In this document: piece by piece, positions 7,724 to 22,963 of the stretch | How the letters are laid out: every line of letters begins with the position of its first letter | Position numbering within the stretch: the first letter of the stretch is position 1 | Source: Escherichia phage tonn | Reading direction: 5' to 3' (one strand) | DNA: 51,012 nt | Sequence record: NC_049815.1 | Notes under the pieces: model-generated | The model's database searches: none | The model's input: only the letters and a program-made list of their open reading frames with translations | Told to the model about the DNA's origin: nothing | Position numbers and translations under genes: made by a program

Positions 7724-7822
7724 AGTAGCGCCCTCATGCTATAAAGAAAAAGTAGCATTGATAATACCGCAATCATTGCGGAATGAAAATCAAAAGGTGG
7801 CTTAGGATTCGTTGCGTTATTG

Positions 7823-8269
7823 TTATTTCCCAGCATTGCGCGCAATCCCCTTATACATGCCGTAAAAATCATCGCCAGGCTTTTTGAACTTGATCGCATT
7901 TCGCGCAAGTCGGCGCATACGTCGCGCATCGTATCTCGCTCGCTGAAATGGTGTTTTCATTGCCTTAACATGACGACCGAGATGATCGCTGATTCTCTTA
8001 AGCTCAATCAAAACTCCTTGAGTCGCCACTACGCAATAATTATCAAAGCCAATACGGCGAGTAATGATATAGCCATTATTGATGCGCGGACGGCAAAAGT
8101 CACCACTAACACCACGATAAATACTATCCACCGCAACAACCTGGCCCTTGCTAACGCCACAATATTTATCTGCCCAGGTTACGCGAAATTTTGTTCCAAC
8201 GCGAATGTCGTTTAACTCCACCATGATTGTTTCCTCTCGTTGATTGGTGTTTGCATTATAGCGAGGCAT
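7823..8269 (-). CDS. hypothetical protein
   Basis: 148 aa ORF; preceded by a TATAAT-containing cassette. Confidence 0.5.
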   Translation of the reverse strand: MPRYNANTNQREETIMVELNDIRVGTKFRVTWADKYCGVSKGQVVAVDSIYRGVSGDFCRPRINNGYIITRRIGFDNYCVVATQGVLIELKRISDHLGRHVKAMKTPFQRARYDARRMRRLARNAIKFKKPGDDFYGMYKGIARNAGK

Positions 8270-8280
8270 TGCGCCCCGCG

Positions 8281-8301
8281 TTTAGCAATTCGTGCTATTT
8301 A
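8281..8301 (-). promoter_or_regulatory. 21-bp intergenic motif copy (variant AAATAGCACGAATTGCTAAA) with TATAAT 22 bp downstream
   Basis: motif match; TAG inside motif is stop of kinase gene. Confidence 0.5.
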
Positions 8302-8885
8302 ATCTTTGTGTGCTTCCATTTGACAGCATTGACGATCTCGTTTACAGCCAGTTCCGGCTTGCCGTCCTGCAAGTGGAAGTCATAGTGATGGATTCGATAG
8401 TGATAACCGCTCAGGTCAATGTAGTCTCTCGAATCGCCAGCAAACGTGAAGCCGTCGCGATGCAATCGGCAAATATGCACATCATGCCCTGCCTTAACAA
8501 GCGGCTTGACTTCTTCGGGGAATCCTCCATCACTGATCACAACCGCCAAATCTCGGTACATCTCGTGAATCTCTTCAACCATGCGACGCCCGAAATAGTG
8601 ATCCCCAAAGACTGGCTTCATTACATCCTCGCTAATCCAGATCATGAATTGTCGAGGTGACTTGCCTCCTAAGATAACTTGAGGCTTTTCTTTTTGCTCA
8701 CGGTCGTTGTACAGGTCAATAAACTCATCATATCGAGTCGGGCCAAGCATGGAAAACGCAATATCGAACATCGGCTGTTTGAATGACGCCTTAACCGCTG
8801 GGTAACGATGGCCCGTTAGGTAAGCTGCAATAGTGTCCTTCCCGCAACCTGGCGGCCCATTAAGGATGATAATGTCTCGTTTCAT
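8295..8885 (-). CDS. P-loop kinase (T4 dNMP kinase / polynucleotide 5'-kinase-like)
   Basis: 196 aa; N-terminal Walker A NGPPGCGKDT resembling the GKDT P-loop of T4 gp1 and the GSGKST of T4 Pnk. Confidence 0.6.
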   Translation of the reverse strand: MKRDIIILNGPPGCGKDTIAAYLTGHRYPAVKASFKQPMFDIAFSMLGPTRYDEFIDLYNDREQKEKPQVILGGKSPRQFMIWISEDVMKPVFGDHYFGRRMVEEIHEMYRDLAVVISDGGFPEEVKPLVKAGHDVHICRLHRDGFTFAGDSRDYIDLSGYHYRIHHYDFHLQDGKPELAVNEIVNAVKWKHTKIK

Positions 8886-8887
8886 GA

Positions 8888-9037
8888 TTAATGATCTCCA
8901 TAGCGAAAAATCGCATTAAATTTTTTCCCGCGCTTCTTGTCTTCGTTGCGCTTCTTGCGTTGCTTTTTCACAAGCTCCACATGCTCATCGTACCCGCGAC
9001 GCTTCTTTTTGGTAATGATTTTTTCAAAGTTACGCAT
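8888..9037 (-). CDS. small highly basic protein (49 aa)
   Basis: manual translation MRNFEKIITKKKRRGYDEHVELVKKQRKKRNEDKKRGKKF...; GGGGGAG RBS; ends 2 nt before kinase ATG. Confidence 0.3.
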   Translation of the reverse strand: MRNFEKIITKKKRRGYDEHVELVKKQRKKRNEDKKRGKKFNAIFRYGDH

Positions 9038-9096
9038 CGTCTCCCCCTTTAGGTTTTCTCAACATGGCGCACTGCATGAATGCGCCATAGCAAGAA

Positions 9097-9282
9097 TCAC
9101 CACTCAAATTTCTGTTTGTCTCTGATGATCTCGTAAATTGCTAACCACACCCAAACAAACCAGAAAGCGAGAACGATTTTATCGTCCTTGTCTGTCGCGC
9201 CAGAATATTTCACAAACGCGCGGAACGTGAATAAGCCTGAAATGTAAAGAAAAACAACCAAAAAAGCAAGTAACAAAATCAT
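9097..9282 (-). CDS. small membrane protein
   Basis: 61 aa, two hydrophobic helices. Confidence 0.45.
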   Translation of the reverse strand: MILLLAFLVVFLYISGLFTFRAFVKYSGATDKDDKIVLAFWFVWVWLAIYEIIRDKQKFEW

Positions 9283-9542
9283 TTATTTTCTCCCTCTACT
9301 ACCAGAGTGTAAAGCAGAACAGGCTCTACCATGTCGCGGCGGCGCGGCTCTCGTGGCGAATCGAGCCATGCGCATTTCCCGTTTGACACAATATGGCCTA
9401 CCAGGTCACTAATTTTTGATATTCCATCTCGACGGATAACGTTGTACCCAATATCCTTGCCGTCAATAGAATGGATAGCAAAGAAGCTAGGCTCGCCGTC
9501 GATAATGTCTACAGCTTTAAAAAACTCGATCTTGTTAGCCAT
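9279..9542 (-). CDS. hypothetical protein
   Basis: 87 aa ORF with RBS GAGGA. Confidence 0.5.
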   Translation of the reverse strand: MANKIEFFKAVDIIDGEPSFFAIHSIDGKDIGYNVIRRDGISKISDLVGHIVSNGKCAWLDSPREPRRRDMVEPVLLYTLVVEGENK

Positions 9543-9600
9543 GATTTAATCCTCGTTTGTTGTTGATGGGCTTACTATACAGCAAGCCCGATGATCTGTT

Positions 9601-9621
9601 TTTTGCAAAAAGTGCTATTTA
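9601..9621 (-). promoter_or_regulatory. 21-bp intergenic motif copy (AAATAGCACTTTTTGCAAAA) with TATAGT downstream inside a hairpin loop
   Basis: motif match. Confidence 0.5.
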
Positions 9622-9776
9622 CGAACGCATAACGCTGTTACATCCTTCCCACTATCTGACATGTGGAGAATAACTTGCTTTCGCGCTTCCTGGCATCTTG
9701 ATTCGCCGTGGAACTCCTGCGACTCAATAGCTGCGGAGTTGTAACTTGTGACAAAGATTAAAAGCAACCAAGTCAT
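9615..9776 (-). CDS. small ORF (53 aa) with N-terminal hydrophobic segment, ATGA-coupled to phosphatase gene
   Basis: manual translation MTWLLLIFVTSYNSAAIES...; stop is the TAG of the motif copy, as for many neighbouring genes. Confidence 0.3.
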   Translation of the reverse strand: MTWLLLIFVTSYNSAAIESQEFHGESRCQEARKQVILHMSDSGKDVTALCVRK

Positions 9777-10327
9777 TTTAAACACTCCACGCCGTGAGAT
9801 TGCAGGTGAGCGTGCGGCTTGTCGTATTCAGTGACCTGATAGGTTGTGATCCCCAGGCTGCGGAAGTGCTTAACAACGTTCGGAGAATCGTCAAAGGCGC
9901 AAACAATATTGTCCAGGCCAATATCGCGCAAGGCTTCTTCTTTAATAACCGTATCCTTTCGGTTGTCCTCCTGGCGGCGCATGATGATTTCGTCAAACTT
10001 CACGCCGTTCTCATTCAACCATTTGCATGTTTCATAGCGCACTTCGTCGCTGCGTCCGGTCAAGATGACGATGGCAAATCCCGACACCCACAAACCGTTA
10101 ATAACCGCGATCGTGCTTTTAATCGGTGAATCTCCGGCGGCGGCCCTGTTAAATTCGCTCCACGATTCCGTAAGGTGTAAGTTTTCAGTTGGCAGCAAAT
10201 GCAAACGATGCGATCCGTCCGATAGTGTGCCGTCCAGGTCAACGATAACAATCGGCTTGCTGGTGATTAATTCGTACTTCTTGCCCCATAGTTCGAAAGT
10301 GTATTTTTTCATTATAAAACCTATCAA
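9773..10327 (-). CDS. HAD-family phosphatase, T4 Pnk 3'-phosphatase domain-like
   Basis: 184 aa; DLDGTL motif I and C-terminal RQEDNRKDTVIKEE / AFDDSPNVV blocks closely resembling the T4 polynucleotide kinase phosphatase domain (from memory). Confidence 0.7.
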   Translation of the reverse strand: MIGFIMKKYTFELWGKKYELITSKPIVIVDLDGTLSDGSHRLHLLPTENLHLTESWSEFNRAAAGDSPIKSTIAVINGLWVSGFAIVILTGRSDEVRYETCKWLNENGVKFDEIIMRRQEDNRKDTVIKEEALRDIGLDNIVCAFDDSPNVVKHFRSLGITTYQVTEYDKPHAHLQSHGVECLK

Positions 10328-10545
10328 TTAAAATGGATTTGCTTGTATTCTATTTCATCTGCCAGATCATTTAACTTATCTGCCAGCTTGCGCACTTGGT
10401 CAACGGTAAGTATCGACCTAAAATCCGGCCTACGCCCACCTTCAAACGTGCCATCAATAAAAACTCGATCGCCAAACTTGTATACATCAATCGCGTCGCC
10501 GTGGTTATCAGTAAACCTGTGCTTGACGCGCTTATTTGTTTTCAT
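10324..10545 (-). CDS. hypothetical protein
   Basis: 73 aa ORF. Confidence 0.5.
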   Translation of the reverse strand: MKTNKRVKHRFTDNHGDAIDVYKFGDRVFIDGTFEGGRRPDFRSILTVDQVRKLADKLNDLADEIEYKQIHFN

Positions 10546-10777
10546 CTTTCACTTCCTCAAATTCCGCGTCTGTAATCTGCTCAAACTCGGCAACTACGTT
10601 TTCAAACGCAACGATCTCTGTTCCATTCTCGCCGTTAAGGTAAAACTTGTATCCGTTGTTGCAGTGAACATGATAAGAGTGACCATCTCTTGTGTCCTTC
10701 TTGCCCTGGTACACCTTGCCAGGCGTGAAGAATGGTCTATTGCTCTTAACGCAAAGAAAATTGTTTTCAATGATCAT
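10532..10777 (-). CDS. small protein, member of intragenomic paralog family
   Basis: 81 aa; shares F.PG..Y...FLNG..GT...AEFE pattern with 10774..10995. Confidence 0.5.
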   Translation of the reverse strand: MIIENNFLCVKSNRPFFTPGKVYQGKKDTRDGHSYHVHCNNGYKFYLNGENGTEIVAFENVVAEFEQITDAEFEEVKDENK

Positions 10778-10995
10778 TGTTTCACTTCCTCAAATTCAGC
10801 CATTACCATAGCGTGTGCCATAACCTTAGTGCCTTCGCCGCCGTTCAGGAACATGCGATGCCCCTTACTATTGCTCACGTAAAAAGATCCGGTTGATGAT
10901 TTCAGTTTTTTCGCTGTATAGATTTCGCCAGGCTTGAACATACCAGAGCAAGCATAGTTAACGGAAACGCATTTCATCTTCTTTTTAATGTACAT
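10774..10995 (-). CDS. small protein, paralog of 10532..10777
   Basis: start moved to ATG at 10995 (GAAGGAG RBS); listed longer ORF would run into the promoter cassette. Confidence 0.5.
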   Translation of the reverse strand: MYIKKKMKCVSVNYACSGMFKPGEIYTAKKLKSSTGSFYVSNSKGHRMFLNGGEGTKVMAHAMVMAEFEEVKQ

Positions 10996-11049
10996 CGTTT
11001 TATCTCCTTCGTTGAAAGTAGGGCCATTATACCTGGCCCCACATTTGAG

Positions 11050-11071
11050 TTTTAACAATTCGTGCTATTTA
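11050..11071 (-). promoter_or_regulatory. 21-bp intergenic motif copy with TATAAT 21 bp downstream inside hairpin GGGGCC..GGCCC
   Basis: motif match; TAA of motif is stop of upstream gene. Confidence 0.5.
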
Positions 11072-11962
11072 CACTTTGACCTTCCACTTAACCATCGTTC
11101 CGCGCTTAATGCTGATCTCACCTGCAATCGTCCGGTTTTTATAGCCGCCGTAGTGAAGCAGAAGGATAACAACGTCATCATGAATCTCGATCGTCTTTGG
11201 TGTTGCCGTTACTTCATACCAGGTGCCGTCATCAAGCCGGACTCCTTTTAGAGTGGCTGCAACTGGCATATCTTCAATTGCGCCCTGCGTTACGATTTCT
11301 TGATTTGCAAATGCGCTCTTGTCAATGCGCCAGCCTCCAGGCGCTTTCATTTCGGCAGCCGCTTTGTGGATCTCATCGCCAATGATTTTTTGAATTGACG
11401 TCTTACCGCCGCCGAATGGAGTTTCTCCAAATAAGTGTTTTGTAATATCTTCCACGTAATACACTTTATCTTTTTCGTTGTGCGGATTGTATCTATTGTG
11501 ACCGTTGACAAAGAAATCAACTTTCAACTCTGATTTCGTACCATCGCTATAAACGCCATTGTCGCGCGATGTGAATCGAATCGTTGAATTACCAACCGTG
11601 TAGAACGTGATCGGATACTTGATATTGTCAACACTTAAGCACCACAGCTTTTTATAGTCGCATGTTTTCATCTCGACCATCGGAATCTCTGCGCGTTCCG
11701 GTGAGCGCACTGGCAACACCTGGCCTTTATATGGCTTGTAGTGGAAGCTGGTATATCCTGGCATTGCATAGCCATAGTCTTTAAGTGCGTTGTACTGCGT
11801 ATTGTGCGCATCAATAAAGTGTTCAATCTCCATGTCTGATGGGCTTAGTTTGTCGCTATTCATATCAACCTTATGGCATGTTTTTTCATCGGTAAAAATG
11901 TAATGACCAATGCCGCGAGATTCGAAGGTGATCGGGAATTTAATGTCAGCAAGTTTTAACAT
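11069..11962 (-). CDS. hypothetical protein (297 aa)
   Basis: long ORF with RBS GGAGAAAG; no recognisable motif. Confidence 0.55.
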   Translation of the reverse strand: MLKLADIKFPITFESRGIGHYIFTDEKTCHKVDMNSDKLSPSDMEIEHFIDAHNTQYNALKDYGYAMPGYTSFHYKPYKGQVLPVRSPERAEIPMVEMKTCDYKKLWCLSVDNIKYPITFYTVGNSTIRFTSRDNGVYSDGTKSELKVDFFVNGHNRYNPHNEKDKVYYVEDITKHLFGETPFGGGKTSIQKIIGDEIHKAAAEMKAPGGWRIDKSAFANQEIVTQGAIEDMPVAATLKGVRLDDGTWYEVTATPKTIEIHDDVVILLLHYGGYKNRTIAGEISIKRGTMVKWKVKV

Positions 11963-12041
11963 GGTGCTTTCTCCTGATTGGTTTTGTGGGCGACGCCGTG
12001 CCGCCCTATGTGATTTATTATGCCTGGTTATCGTTTTCGAG

Positions 12042-21489: not shown

Positions 21490-22605
21490 TCAATTCATCA
21501 TTTCTGGATAGTGAACAAATCGCCCCACCTCTCCATGCTCTTTGTCGTAAATGATAACCGCCGCACGGCGTCGAGATCGCCAGCCACCGCGCGCGGCGTA
21601 TGCGTCTTTTGCCGCCAGGGTGCTATGCACCTCAACGATGCCAAGCGACGTTTCTGTCACGGTCTGGTGATGCCAGTGCCCTACGTGCGCATACATCGTT
21701 TTTGAGTTTCCGAAGTCCTCCCGCCAATCTGACGCGCACATCATTAGCAAAGCCTCCGGTTTACGCACTGTGTGCCCGTGATGGTACGCAAGGAAAGTTT
21801 TTCCGTATTGCGTGTGGTGCACAACGCGAGGGGAAACATCAACGTAAACGCGCGGCTCGTTTTCATATGCTGCCGCCATTGCTGCGCGTAGCCAAATCAT
21901 TCCTGATTGGTCATGATTGCCCTCTACGATCTGGACTTCAACATGTTTATGCTTTAACAACATTTTATTGATTGCGCGTCGCATTGCACGGATGGCAACG
22001 TAAACCAATTTTGCATATCGACTATCTTGATCCAGTACGTGACCGCTTGCAGGTGTAACCGCCTCCAGGCCGTCGCTATGCAGCATATCGCCACCAATCA
22101 GGATGACAGCCTTTTCGCTATCCGGTGCGCACATTAAAGCATAGTCGATAAAGTTATTCATAACGCGCTCTGCCGTGGCAGTATCCCAATTTTCGCCGCA
22201 TTCGTGCTTATGGGCCATAGCGCCTAAGTGCATGTCAAAGATCGGATACAAGGAAAGCGTTTCGTTATAGTCGCGCTCCTGTAATGGAACCGGATCTAAT
22301 CGCGGCACTTCCTCGCTAAATGCCTCCATTGCTGCGCGCATTAATGCTTCTAATTGCTCTTTATCCTTGCTGGTTTTAGTCCACTTTAGGATTATGTTGC
22401 CTTCTTTGTCAGTCATTACTGACTCACCATGAACGCCAAAACCAGGCGCTCCAATGGTGGATACCTGGCCTTGCTTTGCAAGTCGCGCCGCGCGACGCTC
22501 GACGCTTCTCACATTCATTCCGTACTCTTGAGCGATCTGTTTATATGTCTTACCCGCCGCCCGTTCGATCTTGAATTGCTCATCTGTAATTTTTACATTT
22601 TTCAT
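21490..22605 (-). CDS. calcineurin-like metallophosphoesterase (Mre11/SbcD-like) with N-terminal HTH
   Basis: start at ATG 22605 (MKNVKITDEQ); DMHLG, GDMLHSDG and GNHD motifs. Confidence 0.6.
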   Translation of the reverse strand: MKNVKITDEQFKIERAAGKTYKQIAQEYGMNVRSVERRAARLAKQGQVSTIGAPGFGVHGESVMTDKEGNIILKWTKTSKDKEQLEALMRAAMEAFSEEVPRLDPVPLQERDYNETLSLYPIFDMHLGAMAHKHECGENWDTATAERVMNNFIDYALMCAPDSEKAVILIGGDMLHSDGLEAVTPASGHVLDQDSRYAKLVYVAIRAMRRAINKMLLKHKHVEVQIVEGNHDQSGMIWLRAAMAAAYENEPRVYVDVSPRVVHHTQYGKTFLAYHHGHTVRKPEALLMMCASDWREDFGNSKTMYAHVGHWHHQTVTETSLGIVEVHSTLAAKDAYAARGGWRSRRRAAVIIYDKEHGEVGRFVHYPEMMN

Positions 22606-22699
22606 TCTGCTACCTATCTCATCACTATATGGTACATAACTGTAACAGCGATGATAACTGGTAACGGTAGAACAAACAAGCGCCACATGATAACTATCC

Positions 22700-22963
22700 T
22701 CATTTATAATATTTGCGAGGCTCTCGGATTTTAGCCATTGCCTCTTTGAAATCAATTTTTGTTGGAACTGCTGGAACTCTTACCATTTTTCGCGGCCTTT
22801 CCTTGAGGAAAGTCATCTTATCACCGCTAATTATGCTCACATCTGCAATATCAAAGTATTGCGCGATCTTCTTTATATCGTCTGCTATTCCGCATTCTTT
22901 AGCGTGATTCCATACCGCCTCTCTACCTTGTTCAACCTTCATGCTTATAATATGCCTCCGCAA
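22700..22963 (-). CDS. hypothetical protein
   Basis: 87 aa. Confidence 0.45.
   Translation of the reverse strand: MRRHIISMKVEQGREAVWNHAKECGIADDIKKIAQYFDIADVSIISGDKMTFLKERPRKMVRVPAVPTKIDFKEAMAKIREPRKYYK

What the first reader, a model, noticed from the sequence alone, without database searches (positions are those of the whole stretch)
8295..10327. Split T4 Pnk-like end-healing module: separate kinase and 3'-phosphatase genes, no ligase partner seen
The 184-aa protein (9773..10327) has the DxDGT HAD motif and C-terminal blocks that closely resemble the phosphatase domain of T4 polynucleotide kinase. A separate 196-aa P-loop kinase (8295..8885) lies 0.9 kb downstream, with small membrane/basic ORFs between them. 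In T4, Pnk with RNA ligase repairs tRNA cleaved by host anticodon nucleases, but no ligase-like nucleotidyltransferase (KxDG motif) was recognised in this window. Either the kinase is a dNMP kinase unrelated to end healing, or the phage relies on a host ligase or a divergent one (candidate: 11069..11962, 297 aa, no recognised motifs).
Basis: partly seen in the sequence, partly recalled or inferred. Interest (0 to 1): 0.6.

Follow-up and report, generated by a model that had tools for sequence, protein, structure and literature searches.

The report
Phage dNMP kinase plus HAD phosphatase pair
The two genes are real, but they are a deoxynucleotide kinase and a kinase-less Pnk/Dmp-type phosphatase already annotated across T1-like phages, and probably serve nucleotide supply rather than tRNA repair.

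Summary
ORF 9773..10327 (probable start 10312, 179 aa) is a HAD phosphatase: Pfam HAD_PNKP 3.9e-21, with all ten checked T4 Pnk phosphatase residues retained (eight identical, Ser211 as Thr, Lys258 as Lys). ORF 8295..8885 is a P-loop kinase 887 nt downstream. The window, a Warwickvirus genome 99% identical to phage tinuso over the 4.2 kb compared, has no ligase.

The phosphatase shares PHROG 415 with T5 Dmp, a mononucleotide phosphatase, although by profile it is closer to the T4 Pnk phosphatase domain.

The two genes are still linked. In 67 of 80 related loci the phosphatase lies just upstream of the kinase, and two natural phosphatase-kinase fusions exist.

Most likely this is a deoxynucleotide-salvage pair. 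The phosphatase substrate remains open. The 297-aa "ligase candidate" shows nothing ligase-like. The genes are known and already annotated, so interest is modest.

The parts
9773..10312 (-). Kinase-less HAD phosphomonoesterase of the Pnkp / T5-Dmp clade, 179 aa from the ATG at 10312 (the maximal ORF runs to the TTG at 10327, 184 aa).
   Evidence: Pfam HAD_PNKP 3.9e-21; PHROG 415 6.2e-66. PDB sequence hits are Pnkp1 4xrp 7e-7 and T4 Pnk 1ltq 4e-5. Catalytic residues are conserved. hhalign to the T4 Pnk phosphatase domain gives 97.4% probability over 131 columns. T5 Dmp falls in the same PHROG.
8295..8885 (-). dNMP kinase (DNK) of the T4 gp1 class, 196 aa.
8888..9785 (-). Four small intervening ORFs: 8888..9037 (49 aa, very basic), 9097..9282 (61 aa, hydrophobic), 9279..9542 (87 aa), 9615..9785 (56 aa, signal-peptide-like). 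Function unknown. They are variable filler between the two enzyme genes.
   Evidence: ORF list. All four are annotated as CDS in Tuinin. In most other lineages the phosphatase-kinase gap is only 3-200 bp.
21490..22605 (-). Metallophosphoesterase-type 'DNA repair exonuclease' with an N-terminal HTH (PHROG 704). It lies 11 kb away here but directly beside the phosphatase-kinase pair in other phages. The probable start is M51 of the 421-aa ORF.
   Evidence: PHROG 704 1.1e-148. It is 58% identical to Rao1 gp56, which sits immediately upstream of gp57 (phosphatase) and gp58 (DNK). The same family lies immediately downstream of the fused phosphatase-kinase gene on contig L086. The linkage is also noted in PMC13164509.
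11069..11962 (-). It is not part of the module.
   Evidence: PHROG 7116 (unknown function), no Pfam hit. No KxDG. Internal repeat, residues 1-58 resembling 108-160, E 2e-5. The AF2 model is unusable at pLDDT 42.5.

Best explanation
These are two separate enzymes of deoxynucleotide metabolism, not the two halves of a polynucleotide kinase-phosphatase.

The 196-aa protein is a dNMP kinase (DNK) of the T4 gp1 class. It converts dNMPs to dNDPs, which host Ndk then turns into dNTPs for phage DNA synthesis. T1-like phages have no DNA polymerase of their own (none is annotated in the relative Tuinin, none was found among the window's large ORFs, and PMC11447400 says the same). They are also known to recycle the degraded host chromosome.

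The 179-aa protein is a kinase-less HAD phosphomonoesterase from the clade that holds both the T4 Pnk 3'-phosphatase domain and the T5 deoxynucleotidase Dmp. It works through an aspartyl-phosphate intermediate on D30 (184-aa numbering).

The two genes form a conserved phosphatase-then-kinase pair, often next to a metallophosphoesterase nuclease, and are fused into one protein in some phages.

The proposed pathway is inferred, not shown. A nuclease breaks down host DNA. The phosphatase removes phosphates that block use of the products (3'-dNMP, deoxynucleoside 3',5'-bisphosphates or 3'-phosphate ends). The kinase then phosphorylates the resulting 5'-dNMPs. No ligase is needed.

What is shown: family membership of both proteins, an intact catalytic residue set, the gene linkage and the fusions. 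What comes from the literature on orthologues: the dNMP kinase activity. What is inferred: the phosphatase substrate and the coupling of the steps.
For: Kinase:
- PHROG 139 at 8e-51; T4 gp1 itself scores 1.8e-65 on the same profile region; T4 Pnk does not hit PHROG 139.
- hhalign aligns R62, R78 and M81 with gp1 Arg68, Arg132 (dNMP phosphate binding) and Met135 (sugar), and R140 with Arg197 (ATP). Residue roles are from Table 2 of PMC10653934.
- Rao1 R1DNK (46% identical) phosphorylates dAMP, dGMP, dCMP and dTMP in vitro. The KarlJaspers DNK (81% identical) triggers the dNMP-kinase-dependent Kongming system.

Phosphatase:
- Pfam HAD_PNKP, with the catalytic set intact.
- T5 Dmp, a proven dNMP phosphatase, scores PHROG 415 at 3.6e-57 over its full length. 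Pnk-type motifs therefore do not imply polynucleotide substrates.
- The motif I to II spacing is 60 residues, like T5 Dmp (64) and unlike T4 Pnk (46).
- T4 Pnkp phosphatase itself hydrolyses 3'-dTMP.

Coupling:
- 67 of 80 loci have the phosphatase upstream on the same strand, with gaps from 3 bp to 2.2 kb.
- The fusions P0378 and P0387 carry HAD_PNKP followed by PHROG 139 with a conserved linker. The P0378 ORF was verified in DNA from at least two samples.

Nucleotide-metabolism contexts elsewhere:
- A standalone homologue overlaps nrdB in GEC-3S, which also has a full PseT and RnlA.
- A homologue lies next to a dATP/dGTP diphosphohydrolase in PPWS2.
- The kinase lies next to dUTPase in PYps4T.
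- In rV5 and SPLA5a the kinase sits beside an NT5C-type deoxynucleotidase, a thymidylate synthase and RNR.
- The kinase lies next to a nucleoside 2-deoxyribosyltransferase-like gene in L082.

T1 and TLS degrade host DNA and reuse the nucleotides, and the genes responsible are unidentified (PMC11447400).
Against: - By profile comparison the phosphatase is clearly closer to the T4 Pnk phosphatase domain (97.4% probability, 131 columns) than to T5 Dmp (60%, 69 columns). A polynucleotide 3'-end substrate therefore remains quite possible.
- No E. coli or T1 nuclease known to me leaves 3'-phosphates on DNA, so the proposed role for a 3'-phosphatase in salvage lacks a demonstrated substrate source.
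- gp1's Lys37 and Arg177 are not conserved in the kinase; they align to F40 and G121.
- Deleting dnk in Rao1 caused no apparent fitness cost in the competition assay and only a moderately lower dATP level, so the pathway is not essential in the laboratory.
- Gene adjacency inside a DNA-metabolism cluster is weak evidence on its own.
- In some podophages the kinase sits between a metallophosphoesterase and a DNA ligase. That arrangement resembles an end-healing and sealing set.
Confidence: 0.55

Rival explanations
1. The phosphatase is a genuine polynucleotide 3'-phosphatase for DNA repair or recombination. It may work with the PHROG 704 metallophosphoesterase nuclease and the phage RecE/Erf system to clean 3'-phosphate ends so that host polymerase and LigA can act. 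The dNMP kinase is functionally independent and linked only by shared early co-expression.
For: The best Pfam hit is HAD_PNKP, and hhalign gives 97.4% to the T4 Pnk phosphatase domain with all catalytic and phosphate-contact residues retained. The active site has no full cap domain, only 14 extra residues relative to T4 Pnk. There is a recurrent association with an MPP 'DNA repair exonuclease' in Rao1 gp56-57-58 and on L086. Some close relatives carry a Cys4 zinc-ribbon-like insert or an extra C-terminal domain on the phosphatase.
Against: The natural phosphatase-kinase fusions and the strictly conserved gene order argue for more than co-expression. T4-like GEC-3S keeps a standalone copy overlapping nrdB in addition to a full PseT. 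T5 Dmp shows that this clade does act on mononucleotides.
Confidence: 0.15
2. This is the reader's model in modified form: a true end-healing pair. The phosphatase removes 3'-phosphate or 2',3'-cyclic phosphate ends, and the gp1-type kinase has been recruited, by non-orthologous displacement of the Pnk kinase domain, to phosphorylate 5'-OH ends. Sealing is done by host LigA or RtcB, or by a phage DNA ligase in lineages that have one.
For: The phosphatase-then-kinase order is conserved, and the fusions have the same domain order as mammalian PNKP, as I recall it. In roughly nine ~44-kb podophage-like loci the order is metallophosphoesterase, kinase, ATP-dependent DNA ligase, with overlapping stop and start codons. 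This recalls the kinase-phosphoesterase-ligase layout of bacterial Pnkp (PMC3675462 abstract).
Against: Orthologues of this kinase are demonstrated dNMP kinases. Similarity to T4 Pnk is confined to the P-loop. No conserved acidic residue follows strand 2, where T4 Pnk has its general base Asp35 (the position is from my recollection of T4 Pnk; alignment). gp1's acceptor-phosphate arginines are conserved. The window has no ligase. E. coli RtcB joins 3'-P to 5'-OH directly and would be hindered by a 3'-phosphatase (established knowledge).
Confidence: 0.12
3. The phosphatase is a T5 Dmp-like 5'-deoxynucleotidase. Its job is to lower dNMP pools, dAMP in particular, so that the phage's own DNK does not trigger nucleotide-based immunity such as Kongming. 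On this view the pair is a trigger and its antidote.
For: T5 Dmp and the window phosphatase share PHROG 415 and the long motif I to II segment. The Kongming preprint reports that Dmps occur mainly in phages that carry DNKs and that Dmp blocks DNK-triggered toxicity. The tight linkage and the fusions fit a trigger-antidote logic.
Against: Rao1 carries an orthologue of this phosphatase (gp57, 58% identical) directly upstream of its DNK. Even so, Rao1 is strongly restricted by Kongming, its dAMP rises 2-3 fold on infection, and T5 Dmp supplied in trans is needed to rescue it. A phosphatase and a kinase fused and acting on the same dNMP would form a futile cycle. Profile similarity to T5 Dmp is weak.
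Confidence: 0.12

Closest known systems
Escherichia phage Rao1 gp57 / gp58 (R1DNK), and the DNK of Escherichia phage KarlJaspers (bioRxiv 10.1101/2024.12.20.629578)
   Same: The gene pair, order and families are the same. gp57 is 58% identical to the window phosphatase. R1DNK is 46% and the KarlJaspers DNK 81% identical to the window kinase. Rao1 gp56 is 58% identical to the window's PHROG 704 protein.
   Different: In Rao1 the three genes are contiguous. Here four small ORFs separate the phosphatase from the kinase, and the nuclease gene lies 11 kb away. Only the kinase has been studied. gp57 is merely labelled 'polynucleotide kinase'.
T4 polynucleotide kinase-phosphatase (PseT, PDB 1LTQ)
   Same: The phosphatase is homologous to the C-terminal HAD domain, with the nucleophile, acid-base, Mg and phosphate-contact residues conserved.
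   Different: There is no Pnk-type kinase domain. The neighbouring kinase matches T4 Pnk only in the P-loop. The genes are separate and in the opposite order. There is no RNA ligase partner. The segment after motif I is 14 residues longer.
T4 gp1 deoxynucleotide monophosphate kinase (PDB 1DEK), with T5 Dnk and P. putida PP_1964 as functional relatives
   Same: Same PHROG and the best structural match. The GKDT P-loop, the DRE arginine, the R..M acceptor motif and the ATP-base arginine are all conserved.
   Different: Identity is about 16%. The window protein lacks gp1's 36-residue insertion after GKSP. gp1's Lys37 and Arg177 are replaced.
T5 deoxynucleoside-5'-monophosphatase Dmp (T5.001)
   Same: Same PHROG 415, the same four HAD motifs including HR after motif I, T-x-R and KDxVxK, and a similar long motif I to II segment.
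   Different: Similarity is only remote (hhalign 60%, 69 columns). T5 Dmp is 244 aa with a long C-terminal extension and is a pre-early gene far from dnk. The Rao1 data argue that the T1-type enzyme does not deplete dAMP as Dmp does.
Mammalian PNKP and bacterial Pnkp (Clostridium thermocellum type)
   Same: The natural fusions P0378 and P0387 have the phosphatase-then-kinase order of mammalian PNKP (as I recall it). The podophage layout of metallophosphoesterase, kinase and ligase recalls bacterial Pnkp.
   Different: The kinase here belongs to a different P-loop kinase family, with proven mononucleotide substrates. The resemblance is architectural only and was not tested functionally.

Membership tests
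T4-type bifunctional polynucleotide kinase-phosphatase (Pnkp) | C-terminal DxDxT (HAD) 3'-phosphatase domain with the nucleophile and acid-base aspartates, Ser/Thr and Lys phosphate contacts, and Mg-binding aspartates | tested here: met
   Pfam HAD_PNKP 3.9e-21. D30, D32, T90, R92, D125, K129, D146 and D147 align with T4 D165, D167, S211, R213, D254, K258, D277 and D278. Roles of D165, D167, S211, K258 and D278 are from PMC3592404.
T4-type bifunctional polynucleotide kinase-phosphatase (Pnkp) | Pnk-type P-loop 5'-kinase domain homologous to T4 Pnk residues 1-150 | tested here: not met
T4-type bifunctional polynucleotide kinase-phosphatase (Pnkp) | Kinase and phosphatase on one polypeptide | tested here: not met
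   They are separate genes 887 nt apart with four ORFs between them. Fusions exist elsewhere (P0378, P0387), but with the gp1-type kinase.
T4-type bifunctional polynucleotide kinase-phosphatase (Pnkp) | Partner RNA ligase encoded by the same genome | tested here: not met
   No ligase family hit among the window ORFs. None is annotated in the relative Tuinin. tblastn of RnlA and three DNA ligases gave a best E of 3.2.
T4-type bifunctional polynucleotide kinase-phosphatase (Pnkp) | 3'-phosphatase / 2',3'-cyclic phosphodiesterase activity on polynucleotide ends | not testable with these tools
   This needs enzyme assays on 3'-P and 2',3'-cP oligonucleotides.
T4 gp1 / T5 Dnk-class dNMP kinase (PHROG 139) | Full-length match to the family profile that contains the characterised enzyme | tested here: met
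   Window kinase 8.2e-51 on profile positions 81-261; T4 gp1 1.8e-65 on positions 83-261.
T4 gp1 / T5 Dnk-class dNMP kinase (PHROG 139) | gp1 fold (P-loop core plus helical NMP-binding domain) | tested here: met
T4 gp1 / T5 Dnk-class dNMP kinase (PHROG 139) | Residues that bind the acceptor dNMP phosphate and sugar (gp1 Lys37, Arg68, Arg132, Arg177, Met135) | tested here: inconclusive
   Arg68, Arg132 and Met135 align to R62, R78 and M81, which are invariant or nearly invariant. Lys37 and Arg177 align to F40 and G121. An invariant K36 and a lid R153 might substitute.
T4 gp1 / T5 Dnk-class dNMP kinase (PHROG 139) | dNMP to dNDP kinase activity | not testable with these tools
   Not assayed for this protein. 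By literature, Rao1 R1DNK (46% identical) phosphorylates dAMP, dGMP, dCMP and dTMP, and the KarlJaspers DNK (81% identical) triggers Kongming.
T5 Dmp-type deoxynucleoside-5'-monophosphatase | Sequence-family membership with T5 Dmp | tested here: inconclusive
   Same PHROG 415: window 6.2e-66, T5 Dmp 3.6e-57, with a shared long motif I to II spacing. However, direct profile comparison is weak (60%, 69 columns) against 97.4% for the T4 Pnk domain.
T5 Dmp-type deoxynucleoside-5'-monophosphatase | Depletes cellular 5'-dNMP (dAMP) during infection | not testable with these tools
   Indirect literature evidence points against it. Rao1 carries the orthologue, yet dAMP rises on infection and T5 Dmp in trans is required to escape Kongming.
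ATP-dependent polynucleotide ligase (for the 297-aa candidate 11069..11962) | Nucleotidyltransferase motif I KxDG and a ligase family or fold match | tested here: not met
   No KxDG in the protein. No Pfam or NCBIfam ligase hit; PHROG 7116 is of unknown function. No tblastn match to four ligases. The fold test was impossible because the AF2 model reached only pLDDT 42.5.

The most novel reading that the evidence does not exclude
The phosphatase and the gp1-type kinase act as one bifunctional 'healing' enzyme, a Pnkp analogue assembled from a non-orthologous kinase. They are separate here, adjacent in most T1-like phages and fused in P0378 and P0387. On this reading the kinase, besides dNMPs, phosphorylates 5'-OH ends or nucleoside 3'-phosphates, and the phosphatase clears the 3' side. 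Together they repair nuclease-damaged DNA or RNA, or convert 3'-nucleotides into usable 5'-nucleotides.
Probability: 0.1. Interest if true: 0.65.

Novelty: new member of a known kind. Interest (0 to 1): 0.3.

Why it matters
Three practical points follow.

1. Database labels such as 'polynucleotide kinase' or '3'-phosphatase, 5'-polynucleotide kinase' are misleading for these 160-240-aa kinase-less proteins. The tblastn hits across 3,103 phage records include them alongside full-length Pnk genes. PHROG 415 contains no kinase domain and includes the T5 deoxynucleotidase Dmp.

2. The kinase is a known trigger class for the Kongming defence system. This phage is therefore predicted to be Kongming-sensitive.

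3. The function of the phosphatase is still open. Its strict linkage to the kinase, the natural fusions and the neighbouring nuclease make it a good candidate for the long-unidentified machinery by which T1-like phages recycle the host chromosome. This is directly testable in Rao1 or the BASEL phages.

As a discovery it is modest, because the genes are common, annotated and partly characterised.

Tried and rejected
- Pfam, NCBIfam and PDB sequence searches of the kinase gave only P-loop-level noise. Its identity came from PHROGs, fold search and the literature.
- AF2 of the 297-aa 'ligase candidate' failed (pLDDT 42.5; the alignment held only homologues of 84% identity or more). No fold search was run on it and its function stays unknown.
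- Searching viral contigs for the two fusion proteins found nothing. They were located through exact look-up instead.
- I tested whether the podophage metallophosphoesterase upstream of the kinase is the same family as the window's PHROG 704 protein. It is not: PHROG 221 against 704, BLASTP E 0.35.
- I suspected that the 236-aa phosphatase calls in relatives were N-terminal extensions or read-through of the upstream ORF. They are C-terminal extensions, and the upstream ORF is in a different frame.
- I considered the retron Eco2 paper as a link to tRNA cleavage in Drexlerviridae. Its mentions of polynucleotide kinase are only of a laboratory reagent.
- I considered equating the phosphatase with T5 Dmp outright after the PHROG result. 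I rejected this as too strong because of the weak profile similarity and the Rao1 phenotype.
Full report
**What the window is.** Megablast of 7800..12000 shows 99.2% identity to Escherichia phage tinuso and 98-99% to swan01, Tuinin and ityhuna, all Drexlerviridae, Tempevirinae, Warwickvirus. At 51 kb the window is essentially a whole T1-like genome. The relative Tuinin has no annotated DNA polymerase and no ligase.

**Checking the observation.**
- ORF 9773..10327 starts at a TTG. The ATG at 10312, with an AGG 7 nt upstream, gives the 179-aa product annotated in relatives.
- It scores Pfam HAD_PNKP at 3.9e-21, above the curated cut-off, and PHROG 415 at 6e-66.
- PDB sequence hits are Capnocytophaga Pnkp1 and T4 Pnk.
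- An alignment places D30, D32, T34, R41, T90, R92, D125, K129, D146 and D147 on T4 Pnk D165, D167, T169, R176, S211, R213, D254, K258, D277 and D278. The roles of D165, D167, S211, K258 and D278 are described in PMC3592404.
- ORF 8295..8885 carries a GPPGCGKDT P-loop and lies 887 nt downstream, behind four small ORFs.

**Is there a ligase?** No.
- The large ORFs of unknown function gave helicase, primase, Dam, PDDEXK, DUF3987 and similar hits, and no ligase.
- tblastn with three phage DNA ligases and an RnlA gave only chance-level hits, best E 3.2.
- KxDG occurs 11 times in long ORFs. All are in tail, portal, SSB or lipoprotein-like proteins, and none is in the 297-aa candidate.
- The 297-aa candidate belongs to PHROG 7116 (unknown function) and has no Pfam hit. 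It has an internal repeat, residues 1-58 resembling 108-160. Its AF2 model was unusable at pLDDT 42.5.

**What the kinase is.**
- It has no curated Pfam or NCBIfam hit, but scores PHROG 139 'dNMP kinase' at 8e-51.
- T4 gp1 matches the same region of PHROG 139 at 1.8e-65. T4 Pnk, verified against 1LTQ, goes to PHROG 505 and does not hit PHROG 139.
- hhalign extends over the whole protein against gp1 but covers only the 25-residue P-loop against T4 Pnk.
- Using the residue roles tabulated for 1DEK in PMC10653934, the window's R62, R78 and M81 align with gp1 Arg68, Arg132 (acceptor phosphate) and Met135 (sugar). D119 and E125 align with Asp175 and Glu181, and R140 aligns with Arg197 (ATP base). 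gp1's Lys37 and Arg177 are not conserved.

**Experimental anchor for the kinase.** The Kongming preprint (bioRxiv 10.1101/2024.12.20.629578) shows that phage dNMP kinases trigger the KomABC defence.
- R1DNK of phage Rao1 phosphorylates dAMP, dGMP, dCMP and dTMP in vitro.
- The DNK of Escherichia phage KarlJaspers (QXV82329.1) also triggers the system.
- KarlJaspers belongs to Tempevirinae. Its DNK sits in the 90% cluster of P0014 and is 81% identical to the window kinase over its full length.
- R1DNK is 46% identical to the window kinase.

I regard the kinase question as settled.

**What the phosphatase is.** The Pfam best hit and the profile comparison place it nearest the T4 Pnk phosphatase domain: hhalign 97.4%, 131 columns, 31% identity. 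Pnk-type motifs do not fix the substrate, however.
- T5 Dmp, the classical deoxynucleoside-5'-monophosphatase, is itself a HAD enzyme. Its D22, mutated in the preprint, is the DxDGT nucleophile.
- T5 Dmp scores PHROG 415 at 3.6e-57 over its full length. It carries the same HR, T-x-R, KDxVxK and DD motifs.
- The window protein and T5 Dmp share a longer segment between motifs I and II (60 and 64 residues) than T4 Pnk (46).
- Direct similarity between the window family and T5 Dmp is nonetheless weak: 60%, 69 columns.
- T4 Pnkp phosphatase also hydrolyses the mononucleotide 3'-dTMP.

- In 80 viral-contig loci holding a kinase relative (43-97% identical), 67 have the phosphatase gene upstream on the same strand, always in the order phosphatase then kinase. 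Gaps range from 3-21 bp to 2.2 kb.
- A profile search of 1.8 billion representative proteins found 4,309 kinase relatives. Two of them are natural fusions, P0378 (403 aa) and P0387 (461 aa). Each has HAD_PNKP / PHROG 415 at the N-terminus, a linker conserved between the two, and PHROG 139 at the C-terminus.
- The P0378 ORF translates correctly from DNA on contigs from at least two samples. It sits on a 60.7-kb phage contig directly upstream of a PHROG 704 'DNA repair exonuclease'.
- The same three families are contiguous in Rao1 as gp56-gp57-gp58, at 58%, 58% and 46% identity to the window proteins. PMC13164509 notes the same arrangement in other Drexlerviridae.
- In the window, the PHROG 704 gene lies at 21490..22605.

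**Contexts outside T1-like phages.**
- Kinase without this phosphatase. Four T1-like loci have the kinase alone. About nine podophage-like loci of roughly 44 kb have metallophosphoesterase (PHROG 221), then the kinase, then an ATP-dependent DNA ligase, and one of them adds a nucleoside 2-deoxyribosyltransferase-like gene.
- In Chaseviridae the order is ligase, kinase, dUTPase.
- In Vequintavirinae the kinase overlaps a different HAD, of the NT5C 5'(3')-deoxyribonucleotidase family, followed by thymidylate synthase and ribonucleotide reductase.
- Phosphatase without this kinase. T4-like GEC-3S has a standalone copy overlapping nrdB, even though it also encodes a full PseT and RnlA. In Pectobacterium phage PPWS2 the phosphatase sits between a metallophosphoesterase and a dATP/dGTP diphosphohydrolase.

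Most of these neighbours are nucleotide-pool enzymes.

**Weighing the mechanisms.** The kinase makes dNDPs from dNMPs. T1 and TLS degrade the host chromosome and reuse its nucleotides, and the genes responsible are unidentified (PMC11447400). A nuclease, a phosphatase and a dNMP kinase that travel together, and are sometimes fused, fit a salvage route.

The simplest Dmp-like reading is contradicted by Rao1. That reading says the phosphatase depletes dAMP and protects against Kongming. Rao1 carries the orthologous phosphatase next to its DNK. It is nonetheless strongly restricted by Kongming, shows a 2-3 fold rise in dAMP on infection, and needs T5 Dmp supplied in trans to escape.

My preferred role for the phosphatase is therefore removal of 3'-phosphates from breakdown products or ends. 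This is consistent with its closeness to the T4 Pnk domain. It remains an inference, and the source of 3'-phosphorylated substrates is unknown.

A DNA-repair 3'-phosphatase role and a true end-healing role with a moonlighting kinase remain possible. I give salvage 0.55, independent DNA repair 0.15, a Pnkp analogue 0.12 and Dmp-like anti-defence 0.12.

**Novelty and score.** The genes are 97-100% identical to those of many deposited Warwickvirus genomes, where they are already annotated, inconsistently, as 'dNMP kinase' or 'ATP-binding protein' and as 'polynucleotide kinase', 'kinase-phosphatase' or 'acid phosphatase'. The pairing has been remarked on in print, and the kinase subfamily has been characterised.

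Three things are modestly new here. The 'polynucleotide kinase' label on PHROG 415 is a misnomer, since the family also contains T5 Dmp. The pair is fused in some phages. The Rao1 data separate the T1-type phosphatase functionally from Dmp.

Interest is 0.3. This is a new member of a known kind.

Noticed in passing
P0378 (contig L086 9143-10354) and P0387 (L088 498-1883); no counterpart in the window: Natural single-polypeptide fusions of the HAD_PNKP phosphatase (N-terminal) and the gp1-type dNMP kinase (C-terminal), with a linker conserved between the two (..AAG..M.K.G.F.GPELHG..). On L086 the next gene downstream is a PHROG 704 nuclease.
   Followed up: partly
window 21490..22755 (-), probable start at 22605: A PHROG 704 'DNA repair exonuclease' with metallophosphoesterase motifs (GGDMLH, EGNHD) and a weak N-terminal HTH. 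It lies directly beside the phosphatase-kinase pair in Rao1 (gp56) and on L086, but 11 kb away in this genome. It is a candidate for the unidentified host-DNA-degrading function of T1-like phages.
   Followed up: partly
alignment A1 (kinase homologues P0064, P0088, P0092, P0105, P0106, P0111, P0118, P0120); not in the window protein: Several kinase homologues end in an acidic tail, ...DD(I/L)PW. It resembles the C-terminal DDDIPF tail by which E. coli SSB recruits partner proteins (as I recall it), and so hints at recruitment to the replisome.
   Followed up: no
relatives of window 9773..10312: P0121, P0125 (236-237 aa), P0136 (264 aa), P0154 (206 aa): Phosphatases 83-98% identical to the window's carry an extra C-terminal domain of about 57 aa and/or a Cys4 zinc-ribbon-like insert (KPKIECEGEHCFSVVDGKCLRCG). 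In the window, a separate 56-aa signal-peptide-like ORF (9615..9785) overlaps the 3' end of the gene instead.
   Followed up: partly
PHROG 415 as a family: The PHROG labelled 'polynucleotide kinase' has a 218-position profile with no kinase domain. It contains the T5 deoxynucleotidase Dmp. The label propagates into many GenBank records, for example as '3'-phosphatase, 5'-polynucleotide kinase' on proteins of 150-180 aa.
   Followed up: yes
loci L030, L034-L037, L039, L080-L082 (podophage-like contigs of about 44 kb): A conserved run of metallophosphoesterase (PHROG 221), gp1-type kinase and ATP-dependent DNA ligase, with overlapping stop and start codons. L082 adds a nucleoside 2-deoxyribosyltransferase-like gene (DUF7768 / PHROG 355) just before the kinase.
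   Followed up: partly
L083 (Enterobacteria phage GEC-3S, record 131878-132354): A T4-like phage keeps a 158-aa standalone copy of this phosphatase (47% identical) whose start overlaps the end of nrdB. It also has a full-length PseT and RnlA a few kb away. The motif IV aspartate pair reads ED in this copy.
   Followed up: partly
window 10532..10777 and 10774..11058 (-), also 11069..11962 (-): Two adjacent small genes are paralogues (both PHROG 9122). The 297-aa protein next to them is itself an internal duplication. This early region looks like a patchwork of duplicated small beta-rich domains of unknown function.
   Followed up: no
(collection 'phages'): Some 20-39 records named 'Campylobacter phage', with host Campylobacter jejuni, match this coliphage region (81% protein identity to the kinase for A112a). 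A112a, for example, is a 25-kb record without annotation. These look like T1-like coliphage sequences deposited under a Campylobacter label.
   Followed up: no
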